DNA of 64,000 bases from a virus (lineage: Duplodnaviria; Heunggongvirae; Uroviricota; Caudoviricetes), in IMG/VR virus record IMGVR_UViG_2703718787_000017. One strand, written 5' to 3'. The position numbers were made by a program. The first letter of the stretch is position 1; each line of letters opens with the position of its first letter. Positions 1 to 6,000 of the stretch are shown piece after piece.

Positions 1-3000
1 TCAGTTGATTGATGTACGTCGCATTTTTCGAAGGCTGGCAATATGCATTTCCTTCTCAATTTCCGCTTTAATCATGTGTAGTTCGTTGTGGTCGACTCGC
101 TCAAATTCTTCATTAAATGCACCAATTGAAGTGGCTCGGGTTCTGCCGTCGAGTCTTCGGTAGATCACCTGAGTAAGAGTTACCTTGCAGATTTCCACCG
201 GATAGTTGTTGGCATCGACGAAAGATTGCCCGCGCTGGATCAGGACGAACACCGGTAGCATTCCTTAACTGTCATATCATTTGCACCTCGTTGCTACGGC
301 TATCGCCATTGCTCCCCAAATACAAAACTAATTTCAGCCAGTGCTTCGTCCATTTTTTCGATGAACTCCGGCACCATCTCGTCAAAACCAGCCATGTATT
401 TTTCATCCCGCTCGACCACGACATAATGCAGGCCTTCACGCTTCATGCGCGGGTCATAGTTGGCGAAGTACCAGGCATCTTTTCGAGTCACCCACATGCT
501 GAATTGCACCTGGGCCATGTAAGCTGATTTTATGGCCTCGAAACCACCGAGCCGGAATTTCATGAAATCCCGGGAGGTAAACGGACATTTCAGCTCAAGG
601 CCGTTGCCGTCACTGCATAATCCATCCGGAGAGCAGGCGGTACGCATACTTTCGTCGCGATAGATGATCGGGGATTCAGTAATATTCACGCCGGAAGTAA
701 ACTCAAACAGGGCTCTGGCGTCGTTCTCGTACTGTTTTCCCCATGCCAGGGCTTTGGCGTTAACTTCCGGGGCCACACCCGTGCAGACCTCAGCCAGCAG
801 GGTGTGGAAGTAGGACATTTTCATGTCAGGCCATTTCTTTCCGGAGCGGGGTTTGGCTATCACGTTGTGAACTTCTGAAGCTGTGATGACCCCGAGCCGT
901 AATTTTTGCCATGCATAATCTCCCTGCTCGACACCTCTCACGTCGATCCCGGTACGTTGTAGGATAATTTCTGGTGTCATGCTGCCACCTTCTGCTCCGT
1001 GGCTTTCTGTTTCAGGAATCCAAGAACCTTCTCTGCTTCGGCCTGGGACAGTTCTGACGACGCCCGAATGTAGCGGCGAAATATCTGAGAACAGAGCGGC
1101 AAGAGGTCGTCATCCCACGTTTTTTCCATGGAAGTAAGAAGGGCGTTAATTTCCGACATGGTCTCTTCGTTAACCGGGGTGATGTCGCGTTCCGGCTGAC
1201 GTTCTGTAGTATATGCGGTATTTTCGACAATGCGTTCGGCTTCATCCTTGTCATAGATACCAGCAAATCCGAAGGCCAGACGGGCACACTGAATCATCGC
1301 TTTATGCCGTAACATCCGTTTGGGATGCGACTGCCACGGCCCCGTGATTTCTCTGCCTTCGCGGGTTTTGAATGGTGCGCGGCGACATTCATCCATCCAC
1401 TCGGTAACGCAGATCGGGTGATTACGGTCTTTGCGGTAAATCCGACATGTACAGGATTCATCGTTCTGCTCAAAGTCCATGCCATCAAACTGCTGGTTTT
1501 CGTTGATAATGCGGGACCAGCCATCAACGCCCACCACCGGAACGATGCCGTTCTGCTTATCAGGGAAGGCGTAAATTTCTTTCGTCCATGGATTAAGGCC
1601 GTACTGGTTGGCAACGATCAGCAATGCGATGAACTGCGCATCGCTGGCATCACCTTTAAATGCAGTCTGGCGAAGAGTGGTGATCAGTTCCTGTGGGTCG
1701 ACAGAATCCATGCCGACACGTTCAGCCAGCTTCCCTGCCAGCGTTGCGAGAGCTGTACTCATCTGGTTTATACCTCTGAATCAATATAAATCTGGTGGCG
1801 GGCAATGGTTTCAACCATGTACCGGATGTGTTCTGCCATGCGTTCCTGAAAATCGACATCGTCATCAAATGCACGGGCAATGGCTTTTTTGCTGGCTCCA
1901 TGACGTTGCAGATTATCGATGCACAGCGATTCAAACAGGTGCTGGGGCAGACCTTTTTCCAGGTCGTCCGCCAGTTCAGTCTCATTTTCTTCACGGGTAA
2001 TTTGCCGGTAGTGTCGTGCCCATGACTGCTCTTCAATGCGATCGGGGATAAGCCAGGCATTCATGATTTATCACCTCCAAAATTTTCAAGCCTGTTGGCA
2101 ATCATGATTGCGATATCAGGGATTGCTGGCGCTGTTGCGACGCATGCAGGGTTTGCGCACAAACCATAGACGGCTGCAAGCACGAGTTGCCTTTTCCAGT
2201 CGAAATCTGCTTGCTCTGAATCATCATTATTGTCAGAAGCATCACTATCTGGATCGATGTGAACAACCGAATCGTGTTCCTGAGTTGTATCAACAGCATT
2301 TTTCTGAATGTATTCATTCTTCATTTGTGCCTGGTCATCTCCAGCAGCGGTCTCATTTTCTCCAAAAGTTTCAGCGTAAGTTTCATCTCCCATTACTGGA
2401 CCACAGTCAGGGCAATGCCCGCCACTGTTCTGACCGCATGCGGTGCAAACCTTTTCCACTTCCTGTTGCATTACTGGCCCAGGCTGTTGCTCTTCCGGTC
2501 CGTTTTGTTGCGTATCCGGGCTGTTTTGTTCCACTTTGGATTGATTCTGGTCCTCAGTGTCGCGAGTCTGGATCCCCTTCACCCACTTCGGGTCGGTTGG
2601 GTCGCTGATGCCTTCAACGAACTCCCCACGAGAGGCAGCCAGCAATTTGTCTGCATCGACAGGATTTTTGGGCAAAATGTTTTTCCTGGCTTCATAGAGT
2701 TCTGCTCTCAGTTCCTGGTATTTCGTTTCTACAGATGAGACATTTTCCAGTGATTGCGTGTCCGCATTATGTTTAACTGGAATTTCTTCCACTGATTCAG
2801 GCGCTGCCTGTTCATTAGACATTGCGTCCGATGTTTGCTGCTTTTCTTCATCGTCATGTATCTCTTCTGCTGTTCCGCGCTGCGGCATCGGGGCTGATGA
2901 GCGACCGCAGGCAATTTCCACGATTTCCGGATCCGGGTTAGAGTGATCGGTTTCGGTCAACACTTTGTTGAGATATTCAGTCACGCGCGCCGGGATAGCC

Positions 3001-6000
3001 TCAATGCCAATTGGTGCTTCTTTCACTGAAGCCACCACAATGGCGCGGGAATAATCCAGCCCACCGGGCATGGCGATGAATTTGTCACGGAAAACAGAAA
3101 AGGGCGGTTTATTCTCTGCAACGATTTCTTCAACGCGTTTTGCATGTGCAGGGTGCAGGTTATAAATATCCACATCCATTGAACGGGCCAGAACGCCAGT
3201 GGCAATGTCTCGCGCCAGTGATGCCTGATTGTGGGTAAAGCCTTCGCCACGATCGGTAAGATTTCCGCCGCCAGCGTTAGCACCGGAAGGCGTACGAGTG
3301 ATGCCTGTAACATAATTTCCTTTCTGCCATTCTTTTGCCAGCAATCCCTGATCCACATAGTCTGTTTTCATCCAGGTGGAGATGAACTTGTCGAATTCGG
3401 CCGGGCTGATATGACGGGGTGTTGCGTGAGAGAATGCCTTTCCAACGGATTGTGCCAGTCTTCCCAGATGATAATTCGTCAGCTTATCCAGCTCTGGATG
3501 TGAACGCACAGCAGTAAGCAGGCTCTGAAGGTAACTGTCTTCTGTGTCCATCTCCATACGGATCACGTTATTTCGTTGTTCGGGTGTGGCGTGATGCCGA
3601 TATTTTCCATCTTCATCTTTGCTGAAGAAGAGGTGAAGGAAGCGATGAGTAAGGCTCAGAGTGGCGACGGGAATTTCACACTCAGAACAGTCATCGTCGC
3701 TGTCCGGGGATTCGCTTTTCTCCACATCATCCGGAATAGTTCCGTCCAGGTTATCGTAGTCATCGCCAGCTGTTGTGGCATCTTCACCGTTGATGTTGTC
3801 ATCGAAGGGGATTGCCATCATGGTGATGCCATCTTCCCCGCCTTTTTCATAGCGGTTGCAGAATTCAGTATCAAACACGCCTTCCGGTGGAAGGTCATTC
3901 ACGACGGGGAAATTTACGCGAACGGGTTTTTTGAAATCATCCTCGTCGTAGCCTGCATCGTCCATGGCTGCAATGCAGCGGGAAACTGCGACAGAAAGTT
4001 TTCTGGTATCAGCCCAGAAAAAACCGCCTTTGATGCCAAGGCGTTTTCTGACTTTATCGTTTTTTGCTTCGCAGTGCAGTGCAAAAGTTTGTTTATCAGC
4101 GCTCATTGTATTTAAACCTCTGGCTGGATTAGAATTAGCGGCCCTTTGTCTGATTTCTCCGAATACAGTGACGCAGGGGGGAGTCCGGTAGCCTGCGCTG
4201 CCGGATTTTTTATTTCAGTGTAAGGTTGCCTGGTTTGTTGTTTTGTGAGTTGTTTTTTTCTTTTCATGCTGGCAGTCAGAGCAGTTGCATTCGCCATTTT
4301 CTCTGAGAAGTTGAAGTGCCAGGGTCAGTTCCTGAATTCTTTGTGGATCAATATGACTGTCGACAATTTCAGATGCAGCATGAATATATGGGCTGGTGGT
4401 TTCGCAATATAAACCGAAGGAAACAAAGCGACTGTCTTTATATTCGTTATTTCCAACTTCTGTAAGCACTGAAAAAGAAAATACAAAGTCGATTTTGTGT
4501 TTTTTGCATATTTTACTGATGCGTTCTGCAATTTCTTTGAGTTCATTTATTGCATCAGGACTGGTTTCGGAAAAAAATTCATTTTGCGCAAGTTCTTTCA
4601 TTTTGATTTTCCCGTGATTGATAATTAATGTGGTTTTTATTTCGGTTTGTCTGTTACAGATATGGAAGGTGTATTTTATTACTCGTCACAACTACTCTGC
4701 TTTTACAGGTAAGCCATCGCGCCCGATGAAAACTTTAATCATGCAGTCGGTAATGCATGTTTTTGTAGTCAGGCTACGAATATAGAGCTTTCTCTTTTCA
4801 ATATTGTTTGCTGAAGCGATATATGTGCGGCCTTCATGAAGAACATAATCGCCAGGTTTCACGCACTGACGTGGTATTTCATCAGTTCCGAAGTGATGAG
4901 CAATCATAATTATCTCCATTTTCACAAATGAACTTTGTTGATGCGGTGCCTAGTGCCTCCAGGTGACGTTAACCAGTTAACAATTAACGCCGGAGCAGGG
5001 GATGATGATTTTCCGTGACATCCTGTCGGTTTAACTGTTCCGCGTGCGCATAGCCGCATTCACCGCATCATAAAATTCACTTTTAAAAAGGGCGGACATC
5101 AGCAATCGGCAAACCGATGTCCGCCAAAGAGGATATTGATACATGGATGTTGCAGCGGGGTTGTCACTCAGGCGTCTGGGGCGATTTCCATTATTTACGA
5201 TGCACTTGAAACATTCCTTGATCGAAAACTTTCATCTGTCACCGACGGAACATCGAGTAAGCAATAACATTTAACACACACTCTAAATAACAAGGGGTGG
5301 GCTTGATACCGTTCTTTTCAAGCTCACTCGTAATCACCTCCAGAAGTCGTGCGCCCATGAGAATTGTCTTGTGGGATGAAGCTATTACGCCGTTGCTGAT
5401 ATTGCTGTTTATTTCTATTGCTTCATTTTCACCATTCGCGCTAACTTCGGATATGTTATTTTCACTCTCCTGTTTCAGAGCTTTTTCTGCCATCCGGATG
5501 CGTTCCTGCGTTGCGGAGTTTGGGCTAAGTCGATAAACCTGTCTGGCATCTTCCAGAAGCAGGGCGATAATGTGCTTCAGTTCTGTTTCGTTCATAGTTA
5601 ACTCCGGTAGTTGCAATTTATTAATATCAGGCGGTCAGCTCTTTAAGCTTCTGAACTGCTTTATTCATTTCATCCATACAGTCGATGAATTCGTCCAGTT
5701 TAAGCTGCATTTTTCCGGCGGCCTGAAGAATTTCAAGTTTTAAGGGCGCAAGTTTTTTGTTGAATACATCATCTTCCTGGCGTTTTTTCTCCGCAATTTC
5801 GGCGGCTTTCAGCAATTCTTCCGCCTGCTTTCTGAGTATTTCTGGTGAAGGTGAAACTGCTTTTAGGTTATTCATTTCAGGTTCCTGTTGTTGCAGAATT
5901 AATTTGTTGCATTCTCTGCGTGAGCGTTTCATCGCAGATTCGCACTTCTTGCAATAAATGGCTCTCCCGTCACGTTTGCTGGCATCTGAATAAAAATCAT

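What the first reader, a model, noticed from the sequence alone, without database searches (positions are those of the whole stretch)
2061..4106. 681-aa highly acidic protein with two cysteine clusters immediately upstream of gam
The gene is translationally coupled to gam (overlapping start/stop) and so belongs to the recombination/host-nuclease-control operon. Extreme acidity is a hallmark of DNA-mimic anti-restriction proteins, but the size (681 aa) and the CxxC-type clusters are atypical for known mimics. I do not recognise the family.
Basis: inference. Interest (0 to 1): 0.45.

Follow-up and report, generated by a model that had tools for sequence, protein, structure and literature searches.

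The report
Nuclease-less RecE relative upstream of gam
This phage gene encodes the large non-enzymatic front part of the RecE recombination nuclease, with the nuclease replaced by a short conserved tail. Databases therefore mislabel it as an exonuclease, it is probably not a DNA mimic, and it offers a natural handle on the still-unknown job of RecE's N-terminal region.

Summary
Window 2061-4106 (- strand) is an intact 681-aa ORF with pI 4.56 and net charge -58. It has CxxC at residues 140-143, a CxxC-x7-CxxC ribbon at 554-568, and an ATGA overlap with gam.

The family is identifiable. Residues 51-583 are 54-62% identical to the N-terminal, non-nuclease two-thirds of Rac RecE (exonuclease VIII). 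The PD-(D/E)XK nuclease domain is absent. A ~45-aa tail (xLTYxQQLTIAALQGLCANP...DDIPxMA) replaces it and is the best-conserved part of all nuclease-less relatives.

The same platform carries three alternative C-termini at one junction: the RecE nuclease, a DEDD 3'-5' exonuclease, or this tail. In one Rac-like prophage, "nuclease + recT" is exactly replaced by "tail + gam + bet + exo" at RecE codon ~588.

The gene is under purifying selection (dN/dS 0.22-0.28). Three-quarters of the net charge sits in four disordered, fast-evolving linkers. The folded parts are near neutral and have no known structural relative, so a folded Ocr/ArdA-type DNA mimic is not supported.

Best guess, with low mechanistic confidence: a non-catalytic accessory scaffold of the phage recombination module. 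Diverged relatives lack any neighbouring recombinase, which argues against this. I rate it a new variant of a known family, of moderate interest.

The parts
2061..4106 (-). 681-aa ORF: nuclease-less member of the RecE (exonuclease VIII)/YdfE family
   Evidence: ORF list. phrog_607 E 1e-255, covering profile positions 1-618 of 883. NF007259 scores 744 bits against a cutoff of 1269 and covers profile 1-593 of 877. BLASTP to K-12 RecE residues 43-546 at 54% identity, with nothing beyond.
4117..4120 (-). GAGG Shine-Dalgarno-like motif 10 nt upstream of the ATG
   Evidence: Read directly from the sequence. No sigma-70-like promoter match within ~230 nt upstream of the start, the nearest on this strand being a 9-of-12 match at 4363-4336 inside the upstream gene, which fits transcription from pL.
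3789..4106 (-). aa 1-106: N-terminal alpha/beta domain, including the conserved PVVNDLPPEG motif at aa 67-76
3690..3788 (-). aa 107-139: acidic disordered linker 1 (net -13)
   Evidence: pLDDT below 50; -0.39 net charge per residue.
2898..3689 (-). aa 140-403: all-helical core domain. It starts at C140xxC143 and contains the conserved motifs W260, TxSGxxxGGGNxTDR, LARSMDxDIY, PGxLDYSRA and IACG
   Evidence: pLDDT mostly 88-98. dN/dS 0.10-0.16. It is 85-90% identical to RecE over aa 270-405. No structural relative in PDB or BFVD.
2745..2897 (-). aa 404-454: acidic disordered linker 2 (net -10)
   Evidence: pLDDT about 35. dN/dS 0.7-1.1 in two of three allele comparisons.
2574..2744 (-). aa 455-511: long helix (456-475), short helix (485-492) and the conserved linear motif RGEFVEGISDPTDPKWV (aa 493-509; nt 2580-2630)
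   Evidence: pLDDT 72-88. D502, P503, D505, P506, K507 and W508 are 81-90% conserved among the 63-73 family representatives that have this region, across all three classes.
2451..2573 (-). aa 512-552: Q/E-rich disordered linker 3
   Evidence: pLDDT below 50.
2382..2450 (-). aa 553-575: putative zinc ribbon CTACGQNSGGHCPDC (C554, C557, C565, C568)
   Evidence: Cysteine positions. The same C[TN]ACGQxGGxNCPDC occurs in K-12 RecE, Rac-SA53 RecE and the DEDD forms, and is conserved in 109-111 of 113 close homologues, but in only 7 of 84 diverged representatives. The Pfam DZR match is weak (E 0.28).
2208..2381 (-). aa 576-633: acidic disordered linker 4 (net -14). It occupies the junction at which relatives carry a nuclease domain
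   Evidence: pLDDT below 50 over 561-592 and 601-633. dN/dS 0.57-0.59. Homology to RecE ends at aa 583.
2064..2207 (-). aa 634-681: conserved C-terminal tail, two predicted helices, WKRQLVLAAVYGLCANPAC...IPDIAIMIANRL. Invariant in the nuclease-less subfamily: L641, A644, A645, G648, C650, N652, P653
   Evidence: Alignments A1 and A3. A tail HMM scores 65-85 bits on every full-length nuclease-less member, 39-68 on fragments, and gives no hit in the RecE or DEDD forms or elsewhere in the window. dN/dS 0.18. AF2 predicts helices 636-651 and 659-675 at pLDDT 50-70.
2061..2064 (-). ATGA stop/start overlap with gam
   Evidence: Sequence. The same -4 overlap occurs in 42 close relatives; other lineages have a -26 overlap or a +2 gap.
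1768..2064 (-). gam (98 aa)
   Evidence: PF06064, E 5e-62.
977..1762 (-). bet (261 aa)
   Evidence: PF03837 and phrog_252.
300..980 (-). exo (226 aa, lambda Exo/YqaJ type)
   Evidence: PF09588, E 7e-29.

Best explanation
SHOWN. The ORF encodes a nuclease-less member of the RecE (exonuclease VIII)/YdfE family. It keeps the RecE N-terminal 'platform'. That platform consists of an alpha/beta domain (aa 1-106), a helical core (140-403), a helix plus the SDPxDPKW motif (455-511), a zinc ribbon (554-568) and four acidic disordered linkers. The PD-(D/E)XK nuclease domain is replaced by a conserved ~45-aa two-helix tail. It is therefore not an exonuclease, despite its database name, and not a folded DNA mimic. 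It is a selected, autonomous gene.

INFERRED. It acts as a non-catalytic accessory scaffold of the phage's recombination and DNA-end-processing module. Made from the same pL transcript and coupled to Gam-Bet-Exo, it would supply in trans what the N-terminal two-thirds of RecE supplies in cis to the RecE nuclease and RecT. The one published effect of that region is strong stimulation of recombination between two linear DNA molecules. The tail would be the self-association or partner-docking element that stands in for the tetramer-forming nuclease domain. The acidic linkers would be flexible spacers.
For: Homology and absence of the nuclease:
- 54% identity to K-12 RecE residues 43-546 and 62% to Rac-SA53 RecE residues 43-570, with no alignment to the nuclease part.
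- No Pfam PF12684 or YqaJ match, although RecE itself gives PF12684.
- No match to any PDB sequence (E <= 1), a set I expect to include the RecE nuclease-domain crystal structure that review PMC11611040 describes.
- The NCBIfam ExoVIII equivalog covers only profile positions 1-593 of 877 and scores below its cutoff.

Modularity:
- Among 217 50%-identity clusters, the platform carries either the RecE nuclease, a DEDD Rv2179c-like exonuclease (PF16473) or the tail.
- The swap point is exact. RecE reads ...SDPHRDCSDETGEV|ADPVIVEDIEPG..., while relative P0129 reads ...SDPHRDCSDETGEA|TASSLEKLDWKRQVVIAAVYGLCANP....
- In the Rac-like prophage L020, DNA homology to K-12 Rac runs through recE codon ~588. 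'Nuclease + recT' is then replaced by 'tail + gam + bet + exo', and homology resumes at ralR-rcbA.

Selection: dN/dS is 0.22-0.28 overall, 0.10-0.16 in the core and 0.18 in the tail. The tail is invariant at seven positions across proteins only 20-31% identical overall.

Link to recombination:
- The gene always occupies the recombination slot of the pL operon.
- It sits next to three different recombinase types: RecT (Rac); Gam-Bet-Exo (42 IMG/VR loci plus L018 and L020); and Gam plus an AAA_24/Sak4-like protein (L057 and L067).

Published knowledge: full-length RecE, unlike the nuclease domain alone, enhances linear-linear recombination, and the N-terminal region's function is otherwise unknown (PMC11611040; PMC11610958).
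Against: - About 36 diverged nuclease-less loci (26-47% identity; Citrobacter, Lelliottia, Buttiauxella, Cedecea and IMG/VR contigs) have no gam, annealase or exonuclease nearby. They are followed only by a small variable ORF, xis and int.
- The three DEDD-type loci inspected also lack a neighbouring annealase. The platform therefore does not need a phage recombinase.
- The RecE N-terminal effect is documented only in cis.
- RecE/RecT and Exo/Bet are partner-specific pairs (PMC5052646), so transfer of the effect to Red is unproven.
- Nothing here shows DNA binding, oligomerisation or any partner.
- The folded domains resemble no solved structure.
- The tail is modelled only at pLDDT 50-70.
Confidence: 0.4

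Rival explanations
1. Host-takeover or anti-defence adaptor unrelated to recombination. The platform binds a host protein or complex, for example through the conserved SDPxDPKW motif or the tail. The C-terminal module (5'-3' exonuclease, 3'-5' exonuclease or tail) is an exchangeable effector or anchor. The gene sits beside recombination genes only because that is where accessory pL genes accumulate.
For: Nuclease-less and DEDD-type members occur without any phage recombinase. The neighbours are classic host-modulating genes such as kil, gam and Lar/RalR. A conserved short linear motif lies in a disordered region, and the terminal tail is invariant; both are typical of partner binding. The family is confined to 217 sequence clusters at 50% identity, and every relative recovered with a host name is enterobacterial, as expected for host-specific interactions.
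Against: No hit to any PADLOC model, though that library holds defence models, not anti-defence ones. No partner has been identified. The only experimental datum for the platform is an effect on recombination outcome. The platform is fused or adjacent to three recombination systems.
Confidence: 0.25
2. One reading: a DNA-mimic anti-restriction or anti-nuclease protein whose acidity imitates the DNA backbone.
For: Net charge -58 and pI 4.56. The gene sits next to gam, itself a DNA-mimic RecBCD inhibitor. The acidity is retained across the family. Disordered polyacidic tracts can in principle compete with DNA for binding sites; this last point is established knowledge and was not tested here.
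Confidence: 0.07
3. A decaying remnant: a recE gene truncated when a gam-bet-exo cassette replaced the nuclease domain and recT, kept open only by chance or recency.
For: A cassette swap inside recE is visible in the Rac-like prophage L020. A few copies are disrupted: L052, L053, L056 and L065. Shigella carries short fragments.
Against: dN/dS is 0.22-0.28, and 0.10-0.18 in the core and tail. About nine in ten assessable copies are intact. The tail is a specific conserved module, not read-through junk. It is invariant at seven positions in proteins 20-31% identical, from several genera and with no Red genes nearby.
Confidence: 0.04
4. The database annotation is right: an active exodeoxyribonuclease VIII.
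For: It is named 'exodeoxyribonuclease VIII' or 'RecE family exodeoxyribonuclease' in GenBank, RefSeq and PHROGs.
Against: The region that carries RecE's active site is absent. The residues conserved in the core domain are not invariant across the family, for example the GGGNxTDR and DYSRA motifs. A separate Exo is encoded downstream.
Confidence: 0.03

Closest known systems
RecE (exonuclease VIII) of the Rac prophage, E. coli K-12 (866 aa) and Rac-SA53 (1048 aa)
   Same: Residues 51-583 align with RecE 43-546 (K-12) or 43-570 (Rac-SA53) at 54-62% identity, and 85-90% in the core. The PF06630 module, helical core, RGEFVxGISDPxDPKW motif and CxxC-x7-CxxC ribbon are all shared. The operon position after kil is the same, as is the overall acidity.
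   Different: It lacks the C-terminal PD-(D/E)XK nuclease domain (RecE ~588-866, PF12684) and has a conserved 45-aa tail instead. The first 50 residues differ. The downstream partner genes are gam-bet-exo, not recT.
813-847-aa 'exonuclease / 3'-5' exonuclease' proteins of Qin/DicB-type lambdoid prophages, and the IS2-truncated K-12 pseudogene ydfE
   Same: They share the platform, including the first ~97 residues (82% nt identity) and the zinc-ribbon region (78% nt identity). The slot after dicB/kil is the same. K-12 YdfE matches the nuclease-less profile at 98% hhalign probability, E 1e-13.
   Different: They end in a DEDD Rv2179c-like 3'-5' exonuclease domain (PF16473) rather than the tail. 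They are followed directly by xis/int, with no gam, bet or exo.
phrog_26058 ('unknown function'): diverged nuclease-less platform proteins of Citrobacter, Lelliottia, Buttiauxella and Cedecea prophages
   Same: The architecture is the same: platform plus the invariant QQLTxAAxQGxCANP tail. They are acidic and sit last, or nearly last, in the early-left operon.
   Different: Only 20-47% identical. They lack the zinc ribbon and C140xxC143 and carry a different middle module. No gam or recombinase lies downstream.
DNA-mimic anti-restriction and anti-nuclease proteins (T7 Ocr, ArdA, lambda Gam)
   Same: Low pI, early expression, and proximity to host-nuclease control genes.
   Different: No sequence, profile or fold similarity. 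It is 4-8 times larger. The charge sits in disordered linkers rather than on a rigid DNA-shaped surface.

Membership tests
RecE / exodeoxyribonuclease VIII (functional enzyme; NCBIfam NF007259 equivalog) | C-terminal PD-(D/E)XK nuclease domain (PF12684/DUF3799; RecE ~588-866) | tested here: not met
   No PF12684 or YqaJ hit, whereas K-12 and Rac-SA53 RecE both give PF12684. BLASTP to RecE stops at RecE residue 546. No PDB sequence match.
RecE / exodeoxyribonuclease VIII (functional enzyme; NCBIfam NF007259 equivalog) | Whole-protein score at or above the curated equivalog cutoff (1269 bits) | tested here: not met
   744 bits, with the match limited to profile positions 1-593 of 877. K-12 RecE scores 1830 bits.
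RecE / exodeoxyribonuclease VIII (functional enzyme; NCBIfam NF007259 equivalog) | Cognate RecT annealase gene immediately downstream | tested here: not met
   The downstream genes are gam, bet and exo. In Rac it is recT.
RecE / exodeoxyribonuclease VIII (functional enzyme; NCBIfam NF007259 equivalog) | 5'-3' dsDNA exonuclease activity | not testable with these tools
   Needs a biochemical assay.
RecE-family N-terminal region (Pfam PF06630 Exonuc_VIII; phrog_607) - homology only | Significant match to PF06630 above its gathering score, and to the RecE N-terminal ~550 residues | tested here: met
   PF06630 at 47 bits against a cutoff of 25, E 3.7e-12. phrog_607 E 1e-255. 54-62% identity to RecE.
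YdfE_N / YdfE_C (Pfam PF27430 / PF27432) | Match to these Pfam models | tested here: inconclusive
   The models gave no hit in the local Pfam scan, even on relative P0218, which carries both labels in the precomputed table. A direct test on the window protein was therefore not possible. K-12 YdfE matches the subfamily profile (hhalign 98%, E 1e-13), but BLASTP between the window protein and YdfE finds nothing.
Nuclease-less platform subfamily (defined here; includes phrog_26058) | C-terminal tail motif QQLxxAAxxGxC[AS]NP...P..A within 60 residues of the C-terminus, and no nuclease domain | tested here: met
   The tail HMM scores 65.6 bits on the window ORF. All seven invariant positions are present.
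DNA-mimic anti-restriction proteins (Ocr PF08684, ArdA PF07275 and similar) | Sequence or profile similarity to a known mimic family | tested here: not met
   No Pfam hit. hhalign against T7 Ocr gives 0.2% probability.
DNA-mimic anti-restriction proteins (Ocr PF08684, ArdA PF07275 and similar) | Compact fold displaying a DNA-like array of carboxylates | tested here: not met
DNA-mimic anti-restriction proteins (Ocr PF08684, ArdA PF07275 and similar) | Inhibits Type I R-M enzymes or RecBCD | not testable with these tools
   Needs plating or biochemical assays.
Zinc-ribbon domain | Two CxxC knuckles 5-12 residues apart, conserved | tested here: met
   C554xxC557-x7-C565xxC568, conserved in 109-111 of 113 close homologues and in RecE and the DEDD forms. 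The Pfam DZR match is only E 0.28. Metal binding was not testable.

The most novel reading that the evidence does not exclude
RecE's enigmatic N-terminal two-thirds is an autonomous functional unit, a DNA-end-synapsis or partner-recruiting scaffold. Phages plug it onto interchangeable C-terminal modules: a 5'-3' exonuclease, a 3'-5' exonuclease, or a 45-aa docking or oligomerisation tail. In its stand-alone, tail-capped form it would work in trans with whatever recombinase follows it (Exo/Bet, Sak4-like). Co-expressing it with lambda Red would then give Red the RecET-like ability to join two linear DNAs efficiently.
Probability: 0.2. Interest if true: 0.7.

Novelty: new variant of a known kind. 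Interest (0 to 1): 0.45.

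Why it matters
The function of RecE's N-terminal ~590 residues was still called unknown or unclear in two 2023 reviews. It matters in practice because only full-length RecE supports the linear-linear recombination used for direct cloning.

This gene shows that the region exists in nature as a selected, stand-alone protein with its own conserved tail, and that it can also be fused to a nuclease of opposite polarity. That makes the question directly testable. One could delete it in a lambdoid or Stx phage, or add it in trans to Red or to truncated RecE/RecT.

It also corrects a widespread annotation error. Thousands of E. coli and Shigella entries, including Stx-converting phages and the prophage of the O104:H4 strain 2011C-3493, call this protein an exodeoxyribonuclease although it lacks the nuclease domain.

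Tried and rejected
1. Single-sequence AlphaFold2 gave a useless model (pLDDT 37.5). Only the model built on the 150-sequence alignment was usable.
3. I tested the idea that the tail docks onto lambda Exo, Bet or Gam by co-occurrence and dropped it as a general rule. About 36 diverged tail-bearing genes have none of these downstream.
4. I considered that the tail ends in an SSB-C-terminus-like acidic tip (...DDEHMPDF). Only a minor subset has it, and at least the P0108 variant (...DDEYMPNF) arises by reading 23 nt into gam. It is not a family feature.
5. Searching the 5.8-billion-protein set with the tail profile returned only fragments of the same family. No other architecture appeared, though the word index limited the search to 76 candidates.
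6. No conserved downstream or upstream partner gene was found in the diverged loci. The small ORF after the gene is variously Rrf2-like, DUF1187, DUF7740 or unknown.
7. PADLOC gave no hit.
8. Literature searches for YdfE, for RecE N-terminal function, for anti-defence links and for the Stx-phage homologues gave no functional data beyond the linear-linear recombination effect. Fu et al. 2012 itself is not held.
9. A catalytic role for the core domain was considered and rejected. Its Gly-rich/TDR and DYSRA motifs are not invariant across the subfamily.

Full report
**Observation**

Window 2061..4106 on the minus strand encodes 681 aa from an ATG. A GAGG sits 10 nt upstream of the start.

The protein has pI 4.56, 124 Asp+Glu against 66 Lys+Arg (net -58), and 12 cysteines. 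These include C140-x2-C143 and C554-x2-C557-x7-C565-x2-C568, the two clusters in the finding, plus a third pair at C650/C655.

The stop overlaps the next start as TCATGAATG, an ATGA overlap at 2061-2064. The next ORF is Gam (PF06064, E 5e-62), followed by Bet (PF03837) and a lambda-type Exo (PF09588).

Upstream on the same strand lie a phrog_2016 ORF, Kil, two unknown ORFs, a Nun-like ORF, an N-like antiterminator and a CI-type repressor. This is the early-left (pL) operon of a lambdoid phage. The consensus scan finds no sigma-70-like promoter within ~230 nt upstream of the start. The nearest match on this strand is a 9-of-12 site at 4363-4336, inside the upstream gene.

**What the protein is**

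The family is recognisable.
- Pfam gives PF06630, 'Enterobacterial exodeoxyribonuclease VIII' (aa 53-196, E 3.7e-12).
- PHROGs gives phrog_607 at E 1e-255, but the match covers only profile positions 1-618 of 883.
- BLASTP aligns aa 51-583 with K-12 RecE residues 43-546 (54% identity) and with Rac-SA53 RecE residues 43-570 (62%). Nothing aligns with the rest of either RecE.

The rest of RecE is the nuclease. Review PMC11611040 places the domain at residues 564-866 and calls the N-terminal part a 'domain of unknown function'.

Several independent tests agree that the nuclease is missing here.
- K-12 and Rac-SA53 RecE both hit PF12684 (PDDEXK-like) and the window protein does not.
- A sequence search of all PDB chains finds nothing. 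I expect that set to include the RecE nuclease-domain crystal structure that review PMC11611040 describes.
- The NCBIfam ExoVIII equivalog NF007259 scores 744 bits against a cutoff of 1269 and covers profile positions 1-593 of 877. K-12 RecE scores 1830 bits over the whole profile.

The names attached to this protein are transferred from the N-terminal homology and are functionally wrong. Those names include 'exodeoxyribonuclease VIII' in Shigella phages 75/02 Stx and POCJ13 (98.7% nt identity). RefSeq E. coli genomes call it 'RecE family exodeoxyribonuclease'.

**Anatomy**

AlphaFold2 on a 150-sequence alignment of family representatives gives mean pLDDT 72.9, with 316 residues above 90.

| Residues | Feature | Confidence or comment |
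|---|---|---|
| 1-106 | alpha/beta domain | confident |
| 107-136 | disordered | pLDDT <50 |
| 140-403 | all-helical domain | confident |
| 404-454 | disordered | pLDDT <50 |
| 456-475, 485-492 | helices | moderate |
| 512-552 | disordered | pLDDT <50 |
| 561-633 | largely disordered | pLDDT <50 apart from a short predicted helix at 592-602 |
| 636-651, 659-675 | two C-terminal helices | pLDDT 50-70 |

The charge follows this map. The four disordered linkers (183 aa) carry net -43, or -0.235 per residue. The confident folded parts plus the tail (418 aa) carry -11, or -0.026 per residue. The helical core alone has pI 6.06.

**A modular family with three alternative C-termini**

An exhaustive HMMER scan of 1.84 billion representatives finds only 217 clusters, so the family is narrow. 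I classified the longer members with domain probes. One shared platform carries one of three C-terminal modules:
- the RecE PD-(D/E)XK nuclease;
- a DEDD 3'-5' exonuclease of the Rv2179c-like type (PF16473), as in the 813-847-aa 'exonuclease' genes of Qin/DicB-type E. coli prophages;
- no nuclease, but a short tail like that of the window protein.

The modules attach at the same linker. K-12 RecE reads ...SDPHRDCSDETGEV|ADPVIVEDIEPG..., where the nuclease begins. The relative P0129 reads ...SDPHRDCSDETGEA|TASSLEKLDWKRQVVIAAVYGLCANP..., where the tail begins.

A Rac-like prophage (L020, encoding P0121) shows the swap at the DNA level.
- Homology to K-12 Rac runs from kilR through recE codon ~588.
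- It stops there, and resumes at ralR-rcbA.
- In between, 'nuclease domain + recT' is replaced by 'tail + gam + bet + exo'.

Codon 588 is, from my own knowledge, the classical N-terminal boundary of the truncated RecE used in recombineering.

The window gene is itself a mosaic. Its first 290 nt are 82% identical to the 5' ends of DEDD-type genes, and nt 1459-1742 are 78% identical to the zinc-ribbon region of others. Patchy dS along the gene points the same way.

The K-12 pseudogene ydfE (Qin, cut by IS2) is a truncated member of the family. It matches the nuclease-less profile at 98% hhalign probability, E 1e-13. The window protein and YdfE show no pairwise BLASTP similarity.

**The tail is the key conserved element**

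Twenty nuclease-less proteins, 20-31% identical to the window protein apart from one at 67%, all end in xLTYxQQLTIAALQGLCANPAxxxxxDDIPxMAxxLA. Seven positions are invariant, in window numbering: L641, A644, A645, G648, C650, N652 and P653.

A 44-column HMM of the tail scores 65-85 bits on every full-length nuclease-less member (39-68 on fragments). It scores nothing in RecE, the DEDD forms or any other ORF of the window and the loci held at that point.

Neither cysteine cluster from the finding is a family feature.
- The ribbon C[TN]ACGQxGGxNCPDC is shared with RecE and the E. coli DEDD forms and is nearly invariant among 113 close homologues. It occurs in only 7 of 84 diverged representatives.
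- C140xxC143 is invariant in those 113 close homologues and present in Rac-SA53 RecE but not in K-12 RecE. It is absent from the diverged nuclease-less members.

A second conserved short element lies in an otherwise flexible region: RGEFVxGISDPxDPKW (aa 493-509). It is 81-90% conserved across all three classes.

**Selection**

Comparison with two alleles that differ by 9-11% in nucleotides gives these dN/dS values:

| Region | dN/dS |
|---|---|
| Whole gene | 0.22-0.28 |
| Helical core | 0.10-0.16 |
| Tail | 0.18 |
| Acidic linkers | 0.57-1.1 |

About nine in ten assessable copies in IMG/VR are intact. This is a working gene, not debris left by the cassette swap.

**Genomic associations**

I examined about ninety tail-type loci. 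They fall into three groups.

| Group | Identity to window protein | Number of loci | What follows the gene |
|---|---|---|---|
| A | 81% or more | 42 IMG/VR loci | Gam with the same ATGA overlap; Bet and Exo in all but two, where the contig ends just after gam |
| B | 51-62% | 8 loci | Gam with a 26-nt overlap, but no Bet or Exo; in L057 and L067 the next gene is a 365-aa AAA_24 (Sak4-like) protein |
| C | 26-47% | about 36 loci (Citrobacter, Lelliottia, Buttiauxella, Cedecea, metagenomic phages) | No gam, annealase or exonuclease; a small variable ORF (Rrf2-like, DUF1187, DUF7740 or unknown), then excisionase and integrase |

Two further gam-bet-exo loci lie outside group A's ATGA pattern. 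L018 is 81% identical, with a 26-nt overlap of gam. L020 is 65% identical, with a 2-nt gap.

The three DEDD-type loci inspected are likewise followed directly by xis/int.

The platform therefore always sits in the recombination slot. It is found next to three different recombinase types, but it also occurs with none.

**Mechanism**

The shown part is the identity and architecture described above.

For function, the only experimental fact about the platform concerns RecE. Full-length RecE, unlike its nuclease domain alone, strongly enhances recombination between two linear DNAs. The N-terminal region's role is otherwise described as unknown or unclear (PMC11611040; PMC11610958).

Four observations bear on my inference:
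- the exact module swap at the RecE588 boundary;
- the retention of the platform when the recombinase pair is exchanged;
- the coupling to gam-bet-exo;
- the recurrent adjacency to recombinases.

From these I infer that the protein is a non-catalytic accessory scaffold of the phage recombination and DNA-end-processing module, acting in trans. The tail would serve as a self-association or docking element in place of the tetramer-forming nuclease domain.

I hold this at about 0.4 overall. The identity part is close to certain and the mechanistic part is roughly one in three. The main counter-evidence is the group C and DEDD loci that lack any neighbouring recombinase.

The chief rival (0.25) is a host-factor-binding adaptor whose link to recombination genes is only positional.

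**The DNA-mimic idea**

I rate the DNA-mimic idea at 0.07, for these reasons.
- The acidity is shared by the whole family, including RecE's nuclease domain (pI 4.4-5.2).
- It resides in fast-evolving disordered linkers.
- The conserved elements are neutral or hydrophobic.
- There is no sequence, profile or fold similarity to Ocr or any other solved mimic.

A looser version remains formally possible and would need experiment: polyacidic disordered tracts acting as electrostatic decoys.

**Novelty and score**

The family is known. The nuclease-less, tail-capped architecture and the three-way C-terminal modularity are not described in the papers I could search.

I classify it as a new variant of a known kind, with interest 0.45. 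It would modestly surprise a recombineering or lambdoid-phage specialist. It also turns the old question 'what does the RecE N-terminus do?' into a simple trans-complementation experiment.

Noticed in passing
L006:5001-7442, L007:3573-6044, L008:4001-6544 (E. coli Qin/DicB-type prophages): These 813-847-aa proteins share the RecE N-terminal platform but end in a DEDD Rv2179c-like 3'-5' exonuclease (PF16473) instead of the RecE nuclease. They are followed directly by xis/int, with no annealase. The same platform is thus fused to nucleases of opposite polarity.
   Followed up: partly
L102:5079-5999 (E. coli K-12 ydfE, Qin prophage): The K-12 pseudogene ydfE, cut by IS2E, is a truncated member of this platform family (hhalign 98%, E 1e-13 to the nuclease-less profile). 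It shows no pairwise BLASTP similarity to the window protein.
   Followed up: yes
L057:5167-6264, L067:7044-8141 (IMG/VR prophage contigs): In a 51-62%-identity subgroup the tail-type gene overlaps gam by 26 nt. In these two loci a 365-aa AAA_24 (Sak4-like ATPase) gene follows instead of bet/exo. This would be a third kind of recombination module next to the platform.
   Followed up: partly
L018:5001-7055 and relatives P0096, P0108, P0122, P0129: A minor set of alleles end in ...ENFGVTDDE[HY]MP[DN]F, an acidic tip ending in Phe that recalls the SSB C-terminal tail. In L018, whose product P0108 ends ...DDEYMPNF, the ORF reads 23 nt into gam. The window allele stops earlier, at ...ENFGGDKS.
   Followed up: partly
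window 2580-2630 (aa 493-509): The conserved short linear motif RGEFVEGISDPTDPKWV lies in a flexible region. It is 81-90% conserved across the nuclease, DEDD and tail classes and is a candidate partner-binding peptide.
   Followed up: no
window 2061-4106 compared with L004 and L005: dS is very patchy along the gene, from 0.03 to 1.0 between adjacent segments. This indicates recombination between alleles inside the gene (intragenic mosaicism).
   Followed up: partly
window 4215-4601 (- strand): A 128-aa ORF (phrog_2016, unknown function, C-terminal CNCSDC) immediately precedes the gene here and in the phages 75/02 Stx, phiSTEC1589-Stx1c, PhiR5_2 and L018. It occupies the position that racC holds in Rac.
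   Followed up: no
window 5627-6343 (- strand): A 238-aa ORF (phrog_2539, unknown function) has a central Cys-rich segment. That segment gives weaker hits to Lar-like restriction-alleviation, HNH and endonuclease VII zinc-finger PHROGs.
   Followed up: no
window 6694-7047 and 7001-7438 (- strand): A Nun-like ORF (phrog_5632, 117 aa) overlaps the 3' end of the N-like antiterminator ORF by 47 nt. Start-codon choice for both was not examined.
   Followed up: no
L052, L053, L056, L065 (IMG/VR): In a few close relatives the gene is broken into short ORFs although gam-bet-exo are intact. These could be frameshifts or sequencing errors; this was not resolved.
   Followed up: no
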